Positions 26,060 to 60,658 are shown, counted from the first letter of the stretch. The stretch: DNA of 60,658 nucleotides from an uncultured Thermodesulfobacteriota bacterium (GCA_964605225.1 CAZSAY010000004.1:1-60658), one strand, 5' to 3'. A program made the numbers and translations. Notes: a model not told the origin generated them from the sequence alone.

Positions 26060-26473
26060 TTACTTTCCCGGCCCCTGCTTCATCTCGATACGGGCCTCGG
26101 CGTAGGCAATGTCGTCTTCTGCGGCCTTAAATACCGGGTCATCGGGCTCAAGGCCCTTCATCTTTTCCGTGGCCTCTGTAATCTCCTGCCTCGCAGTCTC
26201 TACGTCTATCTCCGCCTCTGTCATGGCGTTATCAAGCAGGAGGATGGTCTTTTCAGGGCCAACCTCGGCGTAGCCGCTGCTGATGGCTATGCGGCCCTTT
26301 TTGGAGCCCGCCTTGTAGCTCACCGCCCCGGCCTTCAGGAGGGAGAAAAAATGCATATGCCCGGGAAGTATGCCGAACTCGCCAAGGTCTCCCGGGGCCG
26401 TCAGATCTTCGGCGTCAAGAGAGAGTATCTTTCTTGAGGGCGTTATTATCTCAAGTAAAAAAGTGTTTGCCAT
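26060..26473 (-). CDS. atpC: ATP synthase F1 epsilon subunit
   Basis: LEIITPSR, PGDLGEFGILPGH, ISSGYAEV. Confidence 0.93.
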   Translation of the reverse strand: MANTFLLEIITPSRKILSLDAEDLTAPGDLGEFGILPGHMHFFSLLKAGAVSYKAGSKKGRIAISSGYAEVGPEKTILLLDNAMTEAEIDVETARQEITEATEKMKGLEPDDPVFKAAEDDIAYAEARIEMKQGPGK

Positions 26474-26500
26474 GAGGTCCTGTTAAGTTCGTTATTTTTT

Positions 26501-26521
26501 GGTGGGCAGTGCCCACCCTAC
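26501..26521 (-). repeat. GTAG-type REP element
   Basis: Minus strand GTAG-GGTGGGCA-C-TGCCCACC: GTAG tetranucleotide followed by a perfect palindrome. Confidence 0.7.
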
Positions 26522-26540
26522 ATGTATAGTCCAAGCAACC

Positions 26541-26655
26541 TGTCCCCCACTATCCCCCGTCTTTAATACGCCCCCGTACTCCCCATACGCCCCCGTACTC
26601 CGTCTTCCCAAACACTTCGCCCCTCATACGCCCCGTCTCTAATACGCCCCGTCCT
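26541..26655 (-). repeat. G-tract short repeats (ACGGGG(G)CGTAT x4) between atpD and atpC
   Basis: Plus-strand ATACGCCCC(C)GT at 26566, 26585, 26626, 26642. Confidence 0.85.
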
Positions 26656-29005
<2,350 letters not shown>

Positions 29006-29092
29006 GCGCTGATATTAAACCCCTTGAATTGATCCTGCTTTAAGTCTCTTGCCTGTTGAATCGAAGGCGCTCTTCGTCTCTTATTTGGCCCC

Positions 29093-30610
29093 TTACTTCT
29101 TGTCGCTTGGGACAAAAAGGTCTTTCAGCTCGTCAAGTGCGGCAACTACCTTTGCCTTCAGGTCATCGTCAAGGACCTTCTTATCGGCTACGGCGCTTAG
29201 AACCTCGGGGCGCCTTGTCTCAAAGAAACTGTAAAGCTCCTGCTCGTACCTCAGGAGATCCTCAGGCGGGTAATCATCGACGTACCCGTTTGTGGCGGCG
29301 TATATTACGATAATCTGCCTCTCTACGGGTAGAGGCGTGTACTGGTTCTGTTTGAGTATCTCAACAAGACGCTCGCCTCGGGCAAGCTGACGCTGTGTGG
29401 CCGGGTCAAGGTCTGAGCCAAACTGCGCGAAGGCCGCGAGCTCTCTGTACTGGGCGAGCTCAAGCCTCATGGTTCCGGCAACCTGCTTCATGCCCTTTAC
29501 CTGGGCGCTACCGCCCACACGGGAGACGGAGAGGCCAACGTTAATGGCCGGCCTGATGCCCGAATAAAAGAGGTCGGACTCAAGGTATATCTGTCCGTCG
29601 GTAATGGAGATGACGTTTGTGGGAATATACGCAGAGACGTCTCCTGCCTGCGTCTCAATAACAGGTAGAGCGGTAAGGGAGCCGCCGCCAAGGGCGTCGC
29701 TGAGCTTTGCCGCCCTCTCAAGGAGCCTTGAATGGAGATAAAAGACGTCTCCGGGGAAGGCCTCACGGCCCGGAGGCCTTCTGAGGAGCAGTGATAACTG
29801 GCGGTACGCCACGGCGTGCTTGGATAGATCATCGTATATGATAAGGGCGTGCTGGCCCTTGTCTCTAAAATACTCGCCTATGGTGCAGCCCGAGTATGGG
29901 GCGATAAACTGCAGGGGCGCGGGAGTTGATGCCGTGGCGGCTACGATTACGGTGTAGTCCATGGCTCCGTGCTCGCTGAGTTTTTGCACTATCTGCGCCA
30001 CTGTGGACTGCTTCTGCCCTATGGCGACGTATATGCAGAATACGTCAAGGCCCTTCTGGTTGATGATGGTGTCTATGGCGATGGCCGTTTTACCAGTCTG
30101 GCGGTCGCCGATGATGAGCTCGCGCTGGCCTCTGCCAATGGGTATCATGGCGTCGATGGCCTTAATCCCTGTCTGGAGCGGCTCTTTAACGGATTTTCTC
30201 GCTACAATGCCCGGGGCCTTTATCTCTATTCTTCTGTTAAGATCAGACTCTATGGGACCTTTGTCGTCAATGGGGTTTCCAAGGGCGTCCACGACCCTGC
30301 CCATGAGGGCCTCGCCAACGGGTATCTCGACGATCCTGCCAGTACGCTTTACCGTATCGCCTTCTTTAATGCCAAAGTCCTCGCCAAGGACGGTGACGCC
30401 TACGTTGTCCTCTTCAAGGTTCAGTATCATGCCGTAAAGACCTGCGGAAAACTCCACAAGCTCTCCGGCCATGGCCTTCTCAAGTCCGTAGACCCTGGCA
30501 ACGCCGTCACCTACGGAGATGACAGTGCCAACCTCCTGAATGTCTACCTCTTTCTCAAAACCCTCTATGCGGGTCCTGATAAGGTTGCTTATCTCTTCTG
30601 CCTTTATCAT
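29093..30610 (-). CDS. atpA: ATP synthase F1 alpha subunit
   Basis: [23 protein letters not shown]; start set at MIKAEEIS (30610) because the longer ORF runs through a repeat. Confidence 0.97.
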
Positions 30611-30642
30611 ATTATCCCACCCCTTGAAGAATTTGCCGTTAT

Positions 30643-30880
30643 AACCTTTCTTACTTTCTTTTGGAAAAAAGTAAAGTAAGACAAAGAAAACCAATAGGGA
30701 ATTAACACTGTTGCTATAAAACCTGCTTCCAACGCCCCGCTAAGCCTAAAGTTCGGAAAAAAGAAAGCAAGGCAAAGAAAACCAATAGGGAATTACCCGT
30801 ACTGCTATTGAATTTACTTCCTGCGCCCCTCCAAACTAAGTACAAAAAAAGAAAGCAAGATAAAAAAACAATATTACCCT
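30643..30880 (-). repeat. Three degenerate tandem copies of the dispersed repeat in the atpH-atpA spacer
   Basis: CAAAGAAAACCAATAGGGAATTA at 30682 and 30773, weaker copy at ~30861; hairpin variant CTTACTTTCTTTT-GGAA-AAAAG(T)AAAGTAAG at 30650-30680. Confidence 0.8.
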
Positions 30881-30945: not shown

Positions 30946-31488
30946 TCAGGCACCCGTCATCCTGGTTTTGAGGAGTTCTAATTGGGTCCTGATGCTACCG
31001 TCTATTACGGTGTTGTCCATCTTTATTACAAGCCCTCCGATAAGGGAAGGATCTGTTGCGGAGGTGAGCACCACCTCTTTACCTGTAATCTCACTTAGTC
31101 TTGACTTTATCTCTGATACTACCTCGCCAGAGAGCTCTTTCGGGGCCTCTATTGTAGCCCTCACCCTTCCGGAGAGCTCATCGTCGAGCTTTGCGTAGGC
31201 CGACTCTATCTCCGTTATAAGGCGGATATGCCTTGTCTCTATAAGGATGACCATGAATTTTTCAACGGCAGTGCTGACCTCAAGCGCAACGGAGACCTTA
31301 TTCATAAGGTCTATCCTCTCATCGAGGCTGTACATAGGGTTCAGGAGGGTGCCGGCAAGCTGGCCGTTGGCACGGAATACGGCCGCGATTTGTTTAAGGT
31401 CAGAGCCAAATCTCTCTGCCTCTCCGCCGGGTCTGCCTACATCCATGAGGGACTTGGCCAGTTTTTTAGCTACGCCAGTGTTTTTCAT
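30946..31488 (-). CDS. atpH: ATP synthase F1 delta subunit
   Basis: Position in operon; VRATIEAP, DPSLIGGLVIKMDNTVIDGSIRTQL. Confidence 0.9.
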   Translation of the reverse strand: MKNTGVAKKLAKSLMDVGRPGGEAERFGSDLKQIAAVFRANGQLAGTLLNPMYSLDERIDLMNKVSVALEVSTAVEKFMVILIETRHIRLITEIESAYAKLDDELSGRVRATIEAPKELSGEVVSEIKSRLSEITGKEVVLTSATDPSLIGGLVIKMDNTVIDGSIRTQLELLKTRMTGA

Positions 31489-31586
31489 GTTTTTAAGGAG
31501 GTTAGACCTCTTTTATCCCCAAAATGCCTGATTTAATTGTTGCTATAAAAGCGTGTTCCTAGCCCAATTTTCCGCCTGCATCTATT

Positions 31587-31649
31587 CCCCATTGGCCGCC
31601 CCCTACCCCCGACTGCCCCCATTGGCCACCCAGTACCCCCTACTGCCCC
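31587..31649 (-). repeat. Two 30-bp G-rich tandem units in the atpF-atpH spacer
   Basis: Plus-strand CCCCATTGGCC at 31587 and 31617; the mRNA strand has seven runs of 3-5 G. Confidence 0.8.
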
Positions 31650-31686
31650 TTTTTTTGCAAATATCCCTTCTTACGCCCACTGCTTT

Positions 31687-32658
31687 TTAATTCAGCCGCA
31701 GGTTCGAGATGTAATTTTTAATTAGCCTCTGCTGGTCTTCGGGTTTGAGTTCCTCGGCGAGTAACTCTTTTGCCATCTGTACGGCAAGCTCGGCGACTTC
31801 GGCGCGTATCTCTATGCGCGCCTTTTTTATTTCCTGCCCGGCCGTGAGCTTTGCCTGCTCTTTTAGCCTTATACCGGCTTGCTCGGCCTCGCTTATAATA
31901 CGCCTTTTTTCCGCCTCGCCCTCAAGCCGGAGCTCTTCGGCTATGGAGGCGAGCCTTGACTCGAGGGTGTTAACGAGTTCCCTGTACTGCAAGGCCGCTT
32001 TTTCCGCCTCTTCTTTTACGCGCGTCGCCTCACTCATGGCCTCTTTTATATCGGCCTGCCTCTTGTCAAGGGCTACGGCGATGACCTTTTTCCAGACAAA
32101 ATATACGGCCACGATGAGGATTATAAAGTTGAGTATCTTCCAGATGCCGAGGATGTGCCCGCCTTCTTCGGCGTGCTCCGCGGCCCTTGATAAAAGGGGA
32201 AGCGAGGTAAGAATCCCGGCGATAAGGGCGATGGCCAGTTTTCGCTCAATAAGCCTCCCGGCTATATCCCTTGAGATGGACCTTGTCTCTACGTTAAGTT
32301 TTTTGATGGCCGAGTCTTTCTCGACGGCTATTTTTTCGCGCATTGAGGTTAATTCGGCAGAGACCTCCTTGCCTGAGGCCTCAAGAAGTTTTTTTTCTTC
32401 CTTGAGGGCTTCTTCTTTTAATTTGGCCCGTACCTCGCCGCCCTTTACCCGCGCTTCAAGCAGTTTTTTCTCATAGGTCACACGGCCCTCTGCAACCTCT
32501 TTCTCTATATCTTCCGCGGCCTTCAAGGTCCCCGTGGTCAGACGGTCCCTCTCTTCCATGACCTTTAAAAGGGGCTTGAAGAGTAGCTTGTCGAGGATGA
32601 TGAGGAGAACGAAAAAACCGATAATCTGATATAGGATGGTAAGGTCCAGCGATAACAT
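31687..32658 (-). CDS. atpF: ATP synthase F0 b'-b fusion (two tandem b-type domains)
   Basis: First half MLSLDLT...LLFKPLLKVMEERD (b'); hydrophobic linker; AAEHAEEGGH...WKILNF...LDKRQADIK (b); no stop codon in 323 codons. Confidence 0.85.
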   Translation of the reverse strand: MLSLDLTILYQIIGFFVLLIILDKLLFKPLLKVMEERDRLTTGTLKAAEDIEKEVAEGRVTYEKKLLEARVKGGEVRAKLKEEALKEEKKLLEASGKEVSAELTSMREKIAVEKDSAIKKLNVETRSISRDIAGRLIERKLAIALIAGILTSLPLLSRAAEHAEEGGHILGIWKILNFIILIVAVYFVWKKVIAVALDKRQADIKEAMSEATRVKEEAEKAALQYRELVNTLESRLASIAEELRLEGEAEKRRIISEAEQAGIRLKEQAKLTAGQEIKKARIEIRAEVAELAVQMAKELLAEELKPEDQQRLIKNYISNLRLN

Positions 32659-32797
32659 TACCCTTTTCTCCCGATAGCAAAGGGGAGTGCATACCTCCCC
32701 CGCATTGACAAAATAAATGATAAAATATACTGGTTAATCACGGTATTGCTAACACATGCGCCAAGGAATTGTCAAGATAATAATAGGGTCAAAATCC

Positions 32798-32945
32798 CTT
32801 ACTTTCTTTTGGAAAAAAGAAACCAAGGGAATGTGAACCAACAGGGGACAATCGTCCCGCCCCTGAACCGGCCCCTTTTGCCCCGCGAAACCACCTTAAA
32901 AAAAAGAAAGTAAGACAAAAAAATCCAAGAGGGGGACAATCTTAC
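32798..32945 (-). repeat. Degenerate copies of the dispersed repeat upstream of atpF
   Basis: CTTACTTTCTTTTGGAAAAAAGAAACCAAG at 32798 and AAAAAAAGAAAGTAAGACAAAAAAATCCAAG at ~32899, each followed by GGGGACAAT. Confidence 0.6.
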
Positions 32946-49451: not shown

Positions 49452-49584
49452 TTAAACCTTCCCGCTTTCTTTTGGAAAAAAGAAAGCTTGGCAAAGAAAA
49501 CCAATAGGGGGTCGATAAGGGTTCTAACATCACCTGTGGCCGCCCTTGGATACTGCCGTTGCCCTGGCAAAGAAAACCAATAGG
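49452..49584 (-). repeat. Dispersed repeat copy E (core + unit + terminal hairpin)
   Basis: GGCAAAGAAAACCAATAGG twice (ending ~49508 and 49584); hairpin GCTTTCTTTT-GGAA-AAAAGAAAGC; ends just upstream of the TTG start at 49448. Confidence 0.9.
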
Positions 49585-57672: not shown

Positions 57673-57910
57673 CCCCTATCTCTTTTCTTTGTCAGGCTTT
57701 TTGCCAGGACAAGGTTGTATCCAAGGGTGGCCGCAGGTGATGTTAGTGGCGAAGTTGCCCCCCTATTGGTTTTCTTTGCCAAGCTTTTTGTCAGGACAAC
57801 GATAGTATCCAAGGGTGGCCGCAGGGGATGTTAGTGGCGAAGTTGCTCCCCTATTGGTTTTCTTTGCCAAGCTTTCTTTTTTCCAAAAGAAAGCGGAAGG
57901 TTTTTTTAAA
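57673..57910 (+). repeat. Dispersed repeat copy F: two ~87-bp tandem units plus terminal hairpin
   Basis: Cores at 57675, 57762, 57850 (periods 87 and 88); GTATCCAAGGGTGGCCGCAGG.GATGTTAGTGGCGAAGTTGC twice. Confidence 0.92.
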
Positions 57911-60519: not shown

Positions 60520-60658
60520 AAACCTTTCCGCTTTCTTTTGGAAAAAAGAAAGCTTGGCAAAGAAAACCAATAGGGGATCCACAGAGCCACTAACATTCCC
60601 CGTGGCCGCCCTTGGATTCAACCTTGCCCTGGCAAAAAGCTTGGCAAAGAAAACCAAT
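60520..60658 (-). repeat. Dispersed repeat copy G (hairpin + unit + core, cut by window end)
   Basis: Reverse complement of copy F; GGCAAAGAAAACCAAT ends at 60571 and 60658 (period 87). Confidence 0.92.

What the first reader, a model, noticed from the sequence alone, without database searches (positions are those of the whole stretch)
31687..32658. ATP synthase b' and b encoded as one polypeptide
Seen: a 323-codon ORF with a complete b' domain, then RLIERKL-AIALIAGILTSLPLLSRA-AEHAEEGGH and a complete b domain. The GR codons at the junction are GGG AGG (32254-32259), a Shine-Dalgarno-like relic where atpF's RBS would sit, but no stop or in-frame ATG follows. The linker looks like a signal peptide ending S-R-A/A. 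Established: b' and b form a parallel dimer whose C-termini lie far from the membrane. Inference: an intact fusion is topologically awkward, so this may be a cleaved polyprotein, use a non-canonical internal start, or form a new stalk architecture.
Basis: partly seen in the sequence, partly recalled or inferred. Interest (0 to 1): 0.65.

Follow-up and report, generated by a model that had tools for sequence, protein, structure and literature searches.

The report
Fused ATP synthase b'-b precursor gene
In this uncultured Thermodesulfobacteriota bacterium and dozens of relatives, the two stator-stalk subunits of ATP synthase (b' and b) are encoded as one protein joined by a conserved internal signal peptide, so it is most likely a precursor cut in two by signal peptidase, which I did not find described for ATP synthase.

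Summary
A 323-codon ORF on the minus strand (32658..31687) holds two complete ATP-synt_B domains with no stop, frameshift or in-frame ATG between them. It heads an operon followed by delta, alpha, gamma, beta and epsilon.

It is not an assembly error. Contigs of two DNA runs cover the junction without differences. Seventy-seven protein clusters (39-83% identity) and 34 species-level genomes carry the same uninterrupted fusion. About 20 more fused proteins (24-32% identity) share the design.

The linker is the former N-terminal signal peptide of b. In 78 homologs position -1 is Ala in 76, -3 is always A/S/G/V/T, and -6 is Pro in 67, while -2 varies freely. [quoted passage not shown] The fusion therefore looks like an in-frame loss of stop, start and n-region.

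Best reading (about 0.65): a 36-kDa polyprotein cut by signal peptidase I after Ala159 into b' (about 18 kDa) and mature b (about 19 kDa). What happens to the hydrophobic tail left on b' is unresolved. No protein-level evidence exists.

The parts
31687..32658 (-). Fused atpF'-atpF gene, 323 codons plus stop; first gene of the F1-side atp operon
   Evidence: ORF list and sequence; two PF00430 / NCBIfam b and b' matches; it is the only b-like ORF in the window.
32242..32658 (-). b' domain, residues 1-139, ending in the motif IAGRLIER that closes unfused b' proteins
   Evidence: NCBIfam b' models PRK07353 and PRK08476 and chloroplast b' 6FKF chain p match this half. It aligns to unfused b' of L054 (40% identity over 141 aa). 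AF2 predicts one continuous helix, residues 6-135.
32590..32643 (-). Membrane helix 1 (b' anchor), about residues 6-23; inferred orientation N-terminus out, C-terminus in (Lys/Arg follow it)
   Evidence: Sequence; hydrophobic segment found in all homologs. The orientation is inferred from the positive-inside rule.
32182..32241 (-). Internal signal-peptide-like linker, residues 140-159 (KLAIALIAGILTSLPLLSRA): h-region L141-L153, c-region P154-A159. The basic n-region is supplied by the b' C-terminus (R135, R139, K140)
   Evidence: Motif statistics over 78 homologs. The linker aligns with the N-terminal signal peptide of unfused b P0115/L054. AF2 pLDDT is below 50 over residues 131-181.
32179..32190 (-). 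Predicted signal peptidase I site S157-R158-A159 | A160 (cut between nt 32182 and 32181)
   Evidence: Position -1 is Ala in 76/78, -3 is A/S/G/V/T in 78/78, -6 is Pro in 67/78, +1 is S/A in 73/78, and -2 is variable with 12 different residues. The same pattern occurs in most of the divergent fused lineages (by eye). The cleavage itself is inferred, not shown.
32155..32181 (-). Short acidic Gly/His-rich loop AEHAEEGGH (residues 160-168), predicted periplasmic; it would be the N-terminus of mature b
   Evidence: The loop is 10-25 aa and rich in E/G/H in all homologs and in unfused signal-peptide-bearing b proteins.
32092..32154 (-). Membrane helix of b (residues 169-189, ILGIWKILNFIILIVAVYFVW), followed by KK...K.R
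   Evidence: W173, N177 and F178 are nearly invariant. It matches the N-terminal helix of solved b subunits such as 6N2Y.
31690..32181 (-). Predicted mature b, residues 160-323, 18.7 kDa
   Evidence: NCBIfam b models and TIGR01144 (86 bits, cutoff 65.5) match residues 172-320. PDB b subunits 6N2Y, 7P2Y and 6OQR match. Mass.
32254..32259 (-).
   Evidence: Orthologs read GGA AGG, GGC AGA, GGA AAG, TCG AGG, TCC CGC, GAG AAG and others. In unfused relatives the RBS lies in the codons equivalent to E138-R139-K140 and the following codons. SD-like content at the junction ranks at the median of the gene.
30946..31488 (-). atpH (delta/OSCP), a separate gene downstream of the fusion
   Evidence: PF00213, E 2e-37.
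26060..30694 (-). atpA (30694-29093; the true start is probably later), atpG (29005-28127), atpD (28074-26656), atpC (26473-26060)
   Evidence: Pfam matches; ORF list.

Best explanation
This is a genuine, lineage-wide gene fusion of the two ATP synthase peripheral-stalk subunits. The ancestral state is still seen in the nearest unfused relatives: a b' gene, then a b gene whose product carries an N-terminal Sec-type signal peptide. An in-frame loss of the b' stop codon, the b start codon and the basic n-region of b's signal peptide joined the two genes. The basic C-terminus of b' (R-x-x-x-R-K) now acts as the n-region of an internal signal peptide. The proposed mechanism has five steps. (1) Shown: one 323-residue, 36.4-kDa polypeptide is encoded, with three hydrophobic segments. 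(2) Inferred: helix 1 inserts with its N-terminus out. (3) Inferred: the internal signal peptide and the b anchor insert together as a helical hairpin and translocate the short acidic Gly/His loop, as M13 procoat and chloroplast CFo-II do. (4) Inferred, but strongly supported by motif conservation: signal peptidase I cuts after Ala159 (S-R-A|A-E-H). This releases mature b (residues 160-323, 18.7 kDa) and b' carrying a 20-residue hydrophobic C-terminal tail (residues 1-159, 17.8 kDa). (5) Speculative: the tail is removed by an intramembrane or signal-peptide protease (RseP or SppA type) or pulled out of the bilayer. Either would let the b' C-terminus reach delta and alpha at the top of F1, as in ordinary b/b' stalks. 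The fusion would enforce 1:1 synthesis and co-insertion of b' and b. Alternatively it is simply tolerated because cleavage separates the products anyway.
For: Two complete b-type domains lie in one ORF, in an operon fused-delta-alpha-gamma-beta-epsilon. The fusion is uninterrupted in 77 protein clusters at 39-83% identity and in 34 other species-level genomes. About 20 further fused proteins at 24-32% identity have the same junction design, and three of their loci were checked and lie in atp operons. The signal-peptidase pattern over 78 homologs is -1 Ala 76/78, -3 A/S/G/V/T 78/78, -6 Pro 67/78 and +1 S/A 73/78, while -2 takes 12 different residues and the h-region conserves only hydrophobicity. 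[quoted passage not shown] The window's linker aligns to that signal peptide. In the FastTree of b domains the unfused pair P0115/P0117 (loci L054/L055) is sister to the fused clade (support 99*, fused clade 97*). The b' domain is full length and keeps the C-terminal motif of unfused b', and AF2 gives a single helix 6-135 with a low-confidence linker 131-181. No start codon is conserved and SD-like content is not enriched at the junction. RseP is documented to degrade remnant signal peptides (PMC9360617).
Against: No dedicated predictor (SignalP, DeepTMHMM) was available, so the site rests on the -3/-1 rule and on conservation. After cleavage b' would still be tethered at both ends, and step 5 has no support beyond topological need. 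The linker is about as hydrophobic as the two true anchors, so it could be a stable membrane helix. The low AF2 confidence over the linker is compatible with, but does not prove, a removable segment. The one metatranscriptome run from the same sample laid nothing on the locus.
Confidence: 0.65

Rival explanations
1. The protein stays intact and works as a three-helix, single-chain stator. The linker would be a permanent second membrane helix. Then b' must either fold back on itself as a loop or hairpin anchored at both ends, or the stalk has a new geometry.
For: No cleavage has been shown. The linker is as hydrophobic as helices 1 and 3. The fusion is stable over deep divergence, as would be expected if covalent linkage itself were useful.
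Against: Strict conservation of a -3/-1/-6 signal-peptidase pattern next to a free -2 position is not expected for an ordinary inter-helix turn. The b' domain has the same length and C-terminal motif as free b'. AF2 predicts an unbroken 130-residue helix. The only candidate hinge (G73) is also present in the unfused sister b'. In every solved b and b' chain that matched, the alignment spans nearly the whole subunit and no two-domain chain matched. That these C-termini lie at the top of F1 is my own knowledge.
Confidence: 0.22
2. Two proteins are made by translation. b' is read through into the fusion, but b is mainly produced from an internal, possibly non-canonical, start codon behind a retained ribosome-binding site.
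For: GGGAGG is present at 32259..32254, with ATT 3 nt and CTG 15 nt downstream. Purine-rich GAG AGG AAA codons are common at the junction in relatives.
Against: GGGAGG is not conserved, and its position is not that of the ancestral RBS. Junction SD-like content ranks at the median of windows within the same genes. Only 2 of 34 loci have an SD-preceded in-frame ATG/GTG/TTG, at different positions, and the window has none. A product starting inside the h-region would lack the basic n-region. Internal initiation would also not remove the full-length read-through product.
Confidence: 0.05
3. The fusion is an artefact: an assembly or sequencing indel that removed a stop or shifted the frame in this metagenome-assembled genome.
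For: The genome is a metagenome assembly, and the only runs found are probably the ones it was built from.
Against: The same uninterrupted ORF occurs in 34 other species-level genomes and 77 protein clusters from many independent studies and assemblers. Contigs from two runs cover the junction without differences or gaps.
Confidence: 0.01

Closest known systems
Unfused atpF' + atpF pairs of related Desulfobacterota-type bacteria, in which b carries an N-terminal Sec-type signal peptide (loci L047, L049, L054, L055)
   Same: Same operon order (b', b, delta, alpha, gamma). Same b' length and C-terminal motif (...IAEKV(L/I)GR...). Same signal-peptide h-region, AxA and Gly/His/Glu-rich stretch before the b anchor. 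P0115/P0117 (L054/L055) are the sister group of the fused clade.
   Different: Two ORFs separated by a stop, either overlapping as ATGA or abutting as TAG-ATG. b has its own start codon and a 10-25-residue basic n-region, both missing in the fusion.
Bradyrhizobium japonicum FbcH, the cytochrome b-c1 polyprotein cleaved at an internal signal peptide (Thony-Meyer et al. 1991, PNAS 88:5001; from my own knowledge, not retrieved here)
   Same: One gene encodes two subunits of one respiratory membrane complex. The second subunit's signal peptide sits internally and is the processing site.
   Different: A different complex. There the upstream partner ends in the membrane, so no topological problem arises. 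Here the upstream partner's C-terminus must end about 150 A from the membrane. Cleavage was shown for FbcH and is only inferred here.
Chloroplast CFo-II (the b' homolog) and M13 procoat: cleavable hydrophobic signal peptide plus anchor inserted as a helical hairpin (Michl et al. 1994, EMBO J; from my own knowledge)
   Same: A b-type stator subunit is made with a cleavable signal peptide, a short acidic translocated loop and a type I signal peptidase site.
   Different: In those cases the signal peptide is N-terminal (behind a stromal transit peptide), not fused to another subunit.
Mycobacterial and actinobacterial b-delta fusion (NCBIfam PRK13428; structures 7JG5, 7NJK)
   Same: A natural covalent fusion involving a peripheral-stalk b-type subunit alongside a second b-type subunit.
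   Different: There the b C-terminus is joined to delta at the top of F1, which is topologically trivial, and stays intact. Here delta is a separate gene, PRK13428 matches only weakly (23 bits, cutoff 328), and the partner is a second membrane-anchored b.
Engineered E. coli b/delta fusion (Gajadeera & Weber 2013, seen in the reference list of PMC4154653) and the fusions listed in recent phylogenomic surveys (b-delta and delta-alpha; bioRxiv 10.64898/2026.10.01.756066)
   Same: They show that stalk subunits tolerate covalent linkage.
   Different: No b'-b fusion is mentioned in the passages found.

Membership tests
F-type ATP synthase subunit b/b' (Pfam PF00430) | Profile match above the curated threshold | tested here: met
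   PF00430 scores 99.5 bits (cutoff 28) in two stretches. TIGR01144 scores 86.4 bits (cutoff 65.5).
F-type ATP synthase subunit b/b' (Pfam PF00430) | N-terminal membrane helix followed by a long continuous helix, for each domain | tested here: met
   Hydrophobic segments at residues 6-23 and 169-189. AF2 helices 6-135 and 193-322.
F-type ATP synthase subunit b/b' (Pfam PF00430) | Location in an atp operon next to delta and alpha | tested here: met
   OSCP, alpha, gamma, beta and epsilon lie directly downstream.
Heterodimeric b/b' stalk (as in cyanobacteria, chloroplasts and many anaerobes) | Two diverged b-type sequences, one b'-like and one b-like | tested here: met
   The N-terminal half best matches b' models (PRK07353, PRK08476) and chloroplast b' 6FKF_p. 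The C-terminal half matches b models and 6N2Y.
Heterodimeric b/b' stalk (as in cyanobacteria, chloroplasts and many anaerobes) | Two separate polypeptides in the assembled enzyme | not testable with these tools
   This needs protein chemistry; it is inferred only from the conserved cleavage motif.
Sec-type (signal peptidase I) signal peptide | Basic n-region, hydrophobic h-region of about 7-15 residues, polar c-region of about 6 residues with a helix breaker | tested here: met
   R135/R139/K140, then L141-L153, then P154-A159. Pro at -6 in 67/78 homologs.
Sec-type (signal peptidase I) signal peptide | Small uncharged residues at -1 and -3 | tested here: met
   Position -1 is Ala in 76/78 and -3 is A/S/G/V/T in 78/78. 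The same holds in most of the divergent fused proteins (by eye).
Sec-type (signal peptidase I) signal peptide | N-terminal position in the precursor | tested here: not met
   It lies at residues 140-159, behind a complete b' domain. It is N-terminal only in the unfused relatives.
Sec-type (signal peptidase I) signal peptide | Actual cleavage by signal peptidase I | not testable with these tools
   No proteomic data are available, and no SignalP-type predictor is on hand.
Lipoprotein (signal peptidase II) signal | Lipobox with Cys at +1 | tested here: not met
   Position +1 is S/A in 73/78 homologs and never Cys.
Tat signal peptide | Twin-arginine motif before the h-region | tested here: not met
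   The n-region reads E-R-K, D-R-S, E-R-N and similar, with no RR.
b-delta fusion (PRK13428 type) | OSCP/delta domain fused to the C-terminus of b | tested here: not met
   Delta is a separate 180-aa gene. PRK13428 scores 23 bits against a cutoff of 328.
Bacterial membrane-complex polyprotein with internal signal peptide (FbcH type) | One ORF for two subunits of one complex, joined by the downstream subunit's signal peptide | tested here: met
   The processing itself could not be tested.

The most novel reading that the evidence does not exclude
The ATP synthase stator of these bacteria matures by two-step proteolysis of a b'-b polyprotein. Signal peptidase I first frees b. Then a site-2-type intramembrane protease (or extraction from the bilayer) releases the b' C-terminus, so it can travel about 150 A to the top of F1. 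Alternatively the tail is never removed, and b' forms a doubly anchored arch, giving a stalk geometry unlike any solved F-ATPase. Either outcome would be a new assembly route or architecture for a universal enzyme. The fusion also appears to have arisen more than once.
Probability: 0.25. Interest if true: 0.8.

Novelty: new variant of a known kind. Interest (0 to 1): 0.58.

Why it matters
b and b' are textbook separate subunits. The natural stalk fusions I found described are b-delta and delta-alpha, which join ends that are already neighbours. Here two membrane-anchored helices that must run in parallel are encoded head-to-tail, which works only if the chain is cut or the stalk is built differently. 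The conserved internal signal-peptidase site gives a concrete, testable prediction: a neo-N-terminus AEHAEE..., and two products of about 18 kDa instead of one of 36 kDa. It also raises a second question, how b' loses or accommodates a C-terminal membrane tail. That question touches on the order of stator assembly, on how heterodimer (not homodimer) formation is enforced, and on the reach of signal-peptide and site-2 proteases. It also shows that signal-peptide-bearing b subunits are common in these lineages, and that current annotation calls the fusion 'subunit B' or 'hypothetical protein' without noting the fusion. The gene is short and could be expressed in laboratory E. coli, so the test is cheap.

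Tried and rejected
(1) The genome search was shut. I could not look in the window's own genome for a second atpF, for atpB/atpE, or for lepB/rseP. Only the window was scanned, and it holds no other b-like ORF.

(2) RNA evidence: the one metatranscriptome run of the same sample laid nothing on the locus.

(3) Hinge idea: the conserved KGG at residues 72-74 might have been the turn of a b' hairpin. I rejected this because the G is also in the unfused sister b' (L054) and AF2 predicts an unbroken helix.

(4) Hydrophobicity scales (Hessa values recalled from memory, and Kyte-Doolittle) did not separate the linker from the true anchors, so they do not discriminate.

(5) Internal RBS or start: the codon-by-codon alignment and the SD-enrichment test were both negative.

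(6) A profile search with the divergent fused proteins (A2) returned few hits and no organism names. The cluster look-up also gave no taxonomy, so the divergent fused lineages remain unplaced and no cultured carrier was identified.

(7) Literature: five searches and two targeted reads found no description of a natural b'-b fusion and no experimental proof that bacterial signal-peptide-bearing b subunits are processed. The library lacks most subscription journals, so this is weak evidence of absence. My recollection that Aquifex aeolicus b2 is processed could not be verified.

(8) Tree of b domains (FastTree only, short coiled-coil sequences): the multiple-origin signal (13 parsimony changes, at least 5 forced by well-supported branches) is suggestive but fragile. 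Some 'unfused' rows may be truncated gene calls of fused genes, for example P0112, P0219 and P0227.

Full report
**Observation.**
The window holds, on the minus strand, an ATG-started ORF at 32658..31687 of 323 codons. Pfam PF00430 (ATP-synt_B) matches it in two stretches. NCBIfam b and b' models cover residues about 2-142 and about 172-320. GGG AGG (G134, R135) lies at 32259..32254. There is no stop and no in-frame Met between M106 and M207.

The gene is the first of an operon: fused gene, delta/OSCP, alpha, gamma, beta, epsilon. Upstream lie a non-coding stretch and a TldD/PmbA gene. It is the only b-like ORF in the window. The whole-genome search tool was shut, so the rest of the genome could not be checked.

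**Is it real?**
Logan contigs of two DNA runs from a microbial-mat metagenome cover 32065-32457 with no differences and no gaps. These runs may be the source of the assembly, so the stronger argument is comparative.
- A search of 5.8 billion proteins returned 77 clusters of 318-337 aa that align end to end at 39-83% identity, from many sources.
- A scan of one genome per prokaryotic species returned 34 further loci, labelled Thermodesulfobacteriota or 'Deltaproteobacteria' MAGs from groundwater, sediment and other studies. In each the ORF runs uninterrupted through the junction: 33 are complete at 319-329 aa and one is cut by a contig end.
- An exhaustive HMMER search of 1.84 billion cluster representatives added about 20 proteins of 320-353 aa at only 24-32% identity that still cover the whole query.
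- By eye, most of these junctions show the same design.
- Three of their loci were checked and lie in atp operons.

The assembly-error explanation is therefore refuted.

**What the linker is.**
I aligned 78 fused homologs on the junction. After the conserved end of b' (I-A-x-[KR]-x-L-x-R) come 16-23 residues. They begin with a hydrophobic run whose sequence is free but whose hydrophobicity is kept.

| Position | Residues in 78 homologs |
|---|---|
| -6 | Pro in 67 |
| -3 | A/S/G/V/T in all 78 |
| -2 | 12 different residues, often bulky |
| -1 | Ala in 76 |
| +1 | Ser or Ala in 73 |

A 10-25-residue stretch rich in Glu, Gly and His follows, and then the b membrane helix (W173, N177 and F178 nearly invariant). 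This is the textbook n/h/c layout and -3/-1 rule of a Sec-type signal peptide cut by signal peptidase I. There is no lipobox Cys and no twin arginine.

In the window the predicted cut is S157-R158-A159 | A160-E161-H162, between nt 32182 and 32181. The full chain is 36.4 kDa. The products would be residues 1-159 (17.8 kDa) and 160-323 (18.7 kDa).

**Where it came from.**
Many unfused b homologs of about 190-215 aa begin with just such a signal peptide, followed by AxA, a Gly/His/Glu-rich stretch and the anchor. Four such loci were read.
- In L047 and L049, b' (144 and 142 aa) ends ...IAEKVLGRSVQ* or ...GRSIS* and overlaps by ATGA a b of 196 or 201 aa.
- In L054 and L055, b' ends ...IAEKVIGRKVV* or ...IAERILDRKVA*, and b starts at an ATG directly after, or two bases after, the stop.

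In a FastTree of b domains the window sits in an all-fused clade of 31 representatives (support 97). That clade's sister is exactly the unfused pair P0115/P0117, which are the b proteins of L054 and L055 (support 99). The window's residues 136-323 align to P0115 from its signal peptide onward (42% identity).

The fused ...ERK-LA-IALIAG... against ...GRK-VV-stop-MKVQISTLNLIQGKFQ-ILLFTV... indicates an in-frame loss of the stop, the start and the basic n-region. After that loss the R/K residues at the end of b' take over the n-region role.

Other fused lineages are scattered among unfused ones on the tree (13 parsimony changes, at least 5 forced by well-supported branches). This suggests repeated gain or loss. 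The sequences are short coiled coils, and some 'unfused' entries may be truncated gene calls, so I hold this loosely.

**Internal start?**
A codon-by-codon view of 35 loci shows no start codon conserved at any aligned position in any frame. The first linker codon is variously CTG, CTT, CTC, GTC, GTT, GTA, GTG, TTC, ATC or ATA.

In the unfused relatives the real atpF Shine-Dalgarno lies in the codons equivalent to E138-R139-K140 and the following codons, 4-5 codons downstream of GGGAGG.

SD-like 4-mers in the 30 nt before the linker are no more frequent than elsewhere in the same Glu/Lys/Arg-rich genes (median rank 0.57). Only 2 of 34 loci have an SD-preceded in-frame ATG/GTG/TTG, at different positions, and the window has none.

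**Topology and mechanism.**
Lys/Arg follow helix 1, precede the linker and follow helix 3, while the loop is acidic. This gives an N-out, in-to-out, out-to-in arrangement (sequence plus the positive-inside rule; inference).

The b' domain has the same length and C-terminal motif as free b'. AF2 on a 46-sequence alignment predicts it as one unbroken helix, residues 6-135. The b part forms helices 193-303 and 306-322, and the linker 131-181 is the only region with pLDDT below 50.

The closest solved chains are single b or b' subunits (6N2Y, 7JG5, 7NJK, 6FKF chain p, 6OQR). The alignments span nearly the whole subunit, and no fused chain exists in the PDB. From established structures, the C-termini of b-type subunits sit at delta and alpha on top of F1. 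A b' C-terminus held in the membrane is incompatible with that arrangement.

The best-supported model is therefore a polyprotein. The internal signal peptide and the b anchor insert as a hairpin. Signal peptidase I cuts after A159, and mature b starts at AEHAEE.... What happens to the 20-residue hydrophobic tail left on b' is open. After the cut it has the topology of a site-2-protease substrate (N-terminus in, minimal periplasmic stub). RseP is known to clear remnant signal peptides (PMC9360617). This step is speculation.

**Rivals.**
- An intact three-helix stator remains possible, at about 0.2. Nothing shows cleavage, and the linker is as hydrophobic as the real anchors. It leaves the conserved -6/-3/-1 pattern unexplained, and it requires b' to fold back. 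The only candidate hinge, G73, is also present in the unfused sister b'.
- Internal initiation is at about 0.05.
- Artefact is at about 0.01.

**Comparison with the known.**
The parts are ordinary: b and b', and a Sec signal peptide. The closest working precedent is the Bradyrhizobium FbcH cytochrome b-c1 polyprotein, which is split at the internal signal peptide of c1. Chloroplast CFo-II is a b-type subunit with a cleavable signal peptide. Both are from my own knowledge and were not retrieved here.

The ATP synthase stalk fusions found in the literature searched are b-delta (mycobacteria; NCBIfam PRK13428) and delta-alpha. A 2014 survey and an October 2026 phylogenomic preprint mention these but not b'-b in the passages found. 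Five searches found no paper on a natural b'-b fusion. NCBIfam has no model for it, and sources name it 'subunit B' or 'hypothetical protein'. The library lacks most subscription journals, so I rate this a new variant of a known kind rather than categorically new.

**Verdict.**
The fusion is real, conserved and widespread in uncultured Desulfobacterota-type lineages. The RBS-relic detail is wrong. Interest is moderate to high (0.58): the finding is unexpected for a universal enzyme and gives a sharp, cheap experimental test, but the key step has no protein-level evidence yet.

Noticed in passing
window 31489-31686: The 198-nt spacer between the fused gene and atpH is filled with two units of about 30 bp (CCCCATTGGCC(G/A)CCC..TACCCCC.ACTGCCCC on the + strand, so G-rich on the mRNA strand). 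In the unfused and divergent relatives read here these genes abut or overlap (L047, L049, L051, L053, L054).
   Followed up: no
window 32802-32848 (also 30654-30700, 30746-30792, 49465-49511, 60531-60577, 1-49, 57850-57898): A copy of a dispersed repeat (CTTTCTTTTGGAAAAAAGAAAGC...CCAATAGGG) lies about 145 nt upstream of the fused gene's start. It coincides with a spike in summed contig depth at 32777-32827 (up to about 8000) in both DNA runs, so the element is very abundant in the sample.
   Followed up: partly
L052 3710-4678 and 4706-4960: In a divergent fused-b'b lineage the Fo operon reads ATPase_gene1, AtpI, a, a 322-aa ATP-synt_C protein, an 84-aa c, then fused b'b. The 322-aa protein presumably holds several fused c hairpins. 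No F1 genes are nearby, and a GGDEF response regulator follows.
   Followed up: no
window 29093-30694: The longest atpA ORF starts at a TTG 28 codons before the conserved MIKAEEIS... and runs into the repeat-filled atpH-atpA spacer. The true start is probably near 30610.
   Followed up: no
P0127, P0180, P0188, P0213, P0238: Some b homologs of 298-406 aa are not b'-b fusions. They carry an N-terminal signal peptide followed by 100-190 residues of low-complexity Ala/Glu/His/Pro-rich periplasmic sequence before the b anchor. P0238 is a fused form with an extra-long linker.
   Followed up: no
L035 4001-4902: A more distant Thermodesulfobacteriota genome (31% identity) has unfused b' (143 aa) and a b of 157 aa without any signal peptide, overlapping by ATGA. 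Three states therefore coexist in the phylum: b without a signal peptide, b with one, and the fusion.
   Followed up: partly
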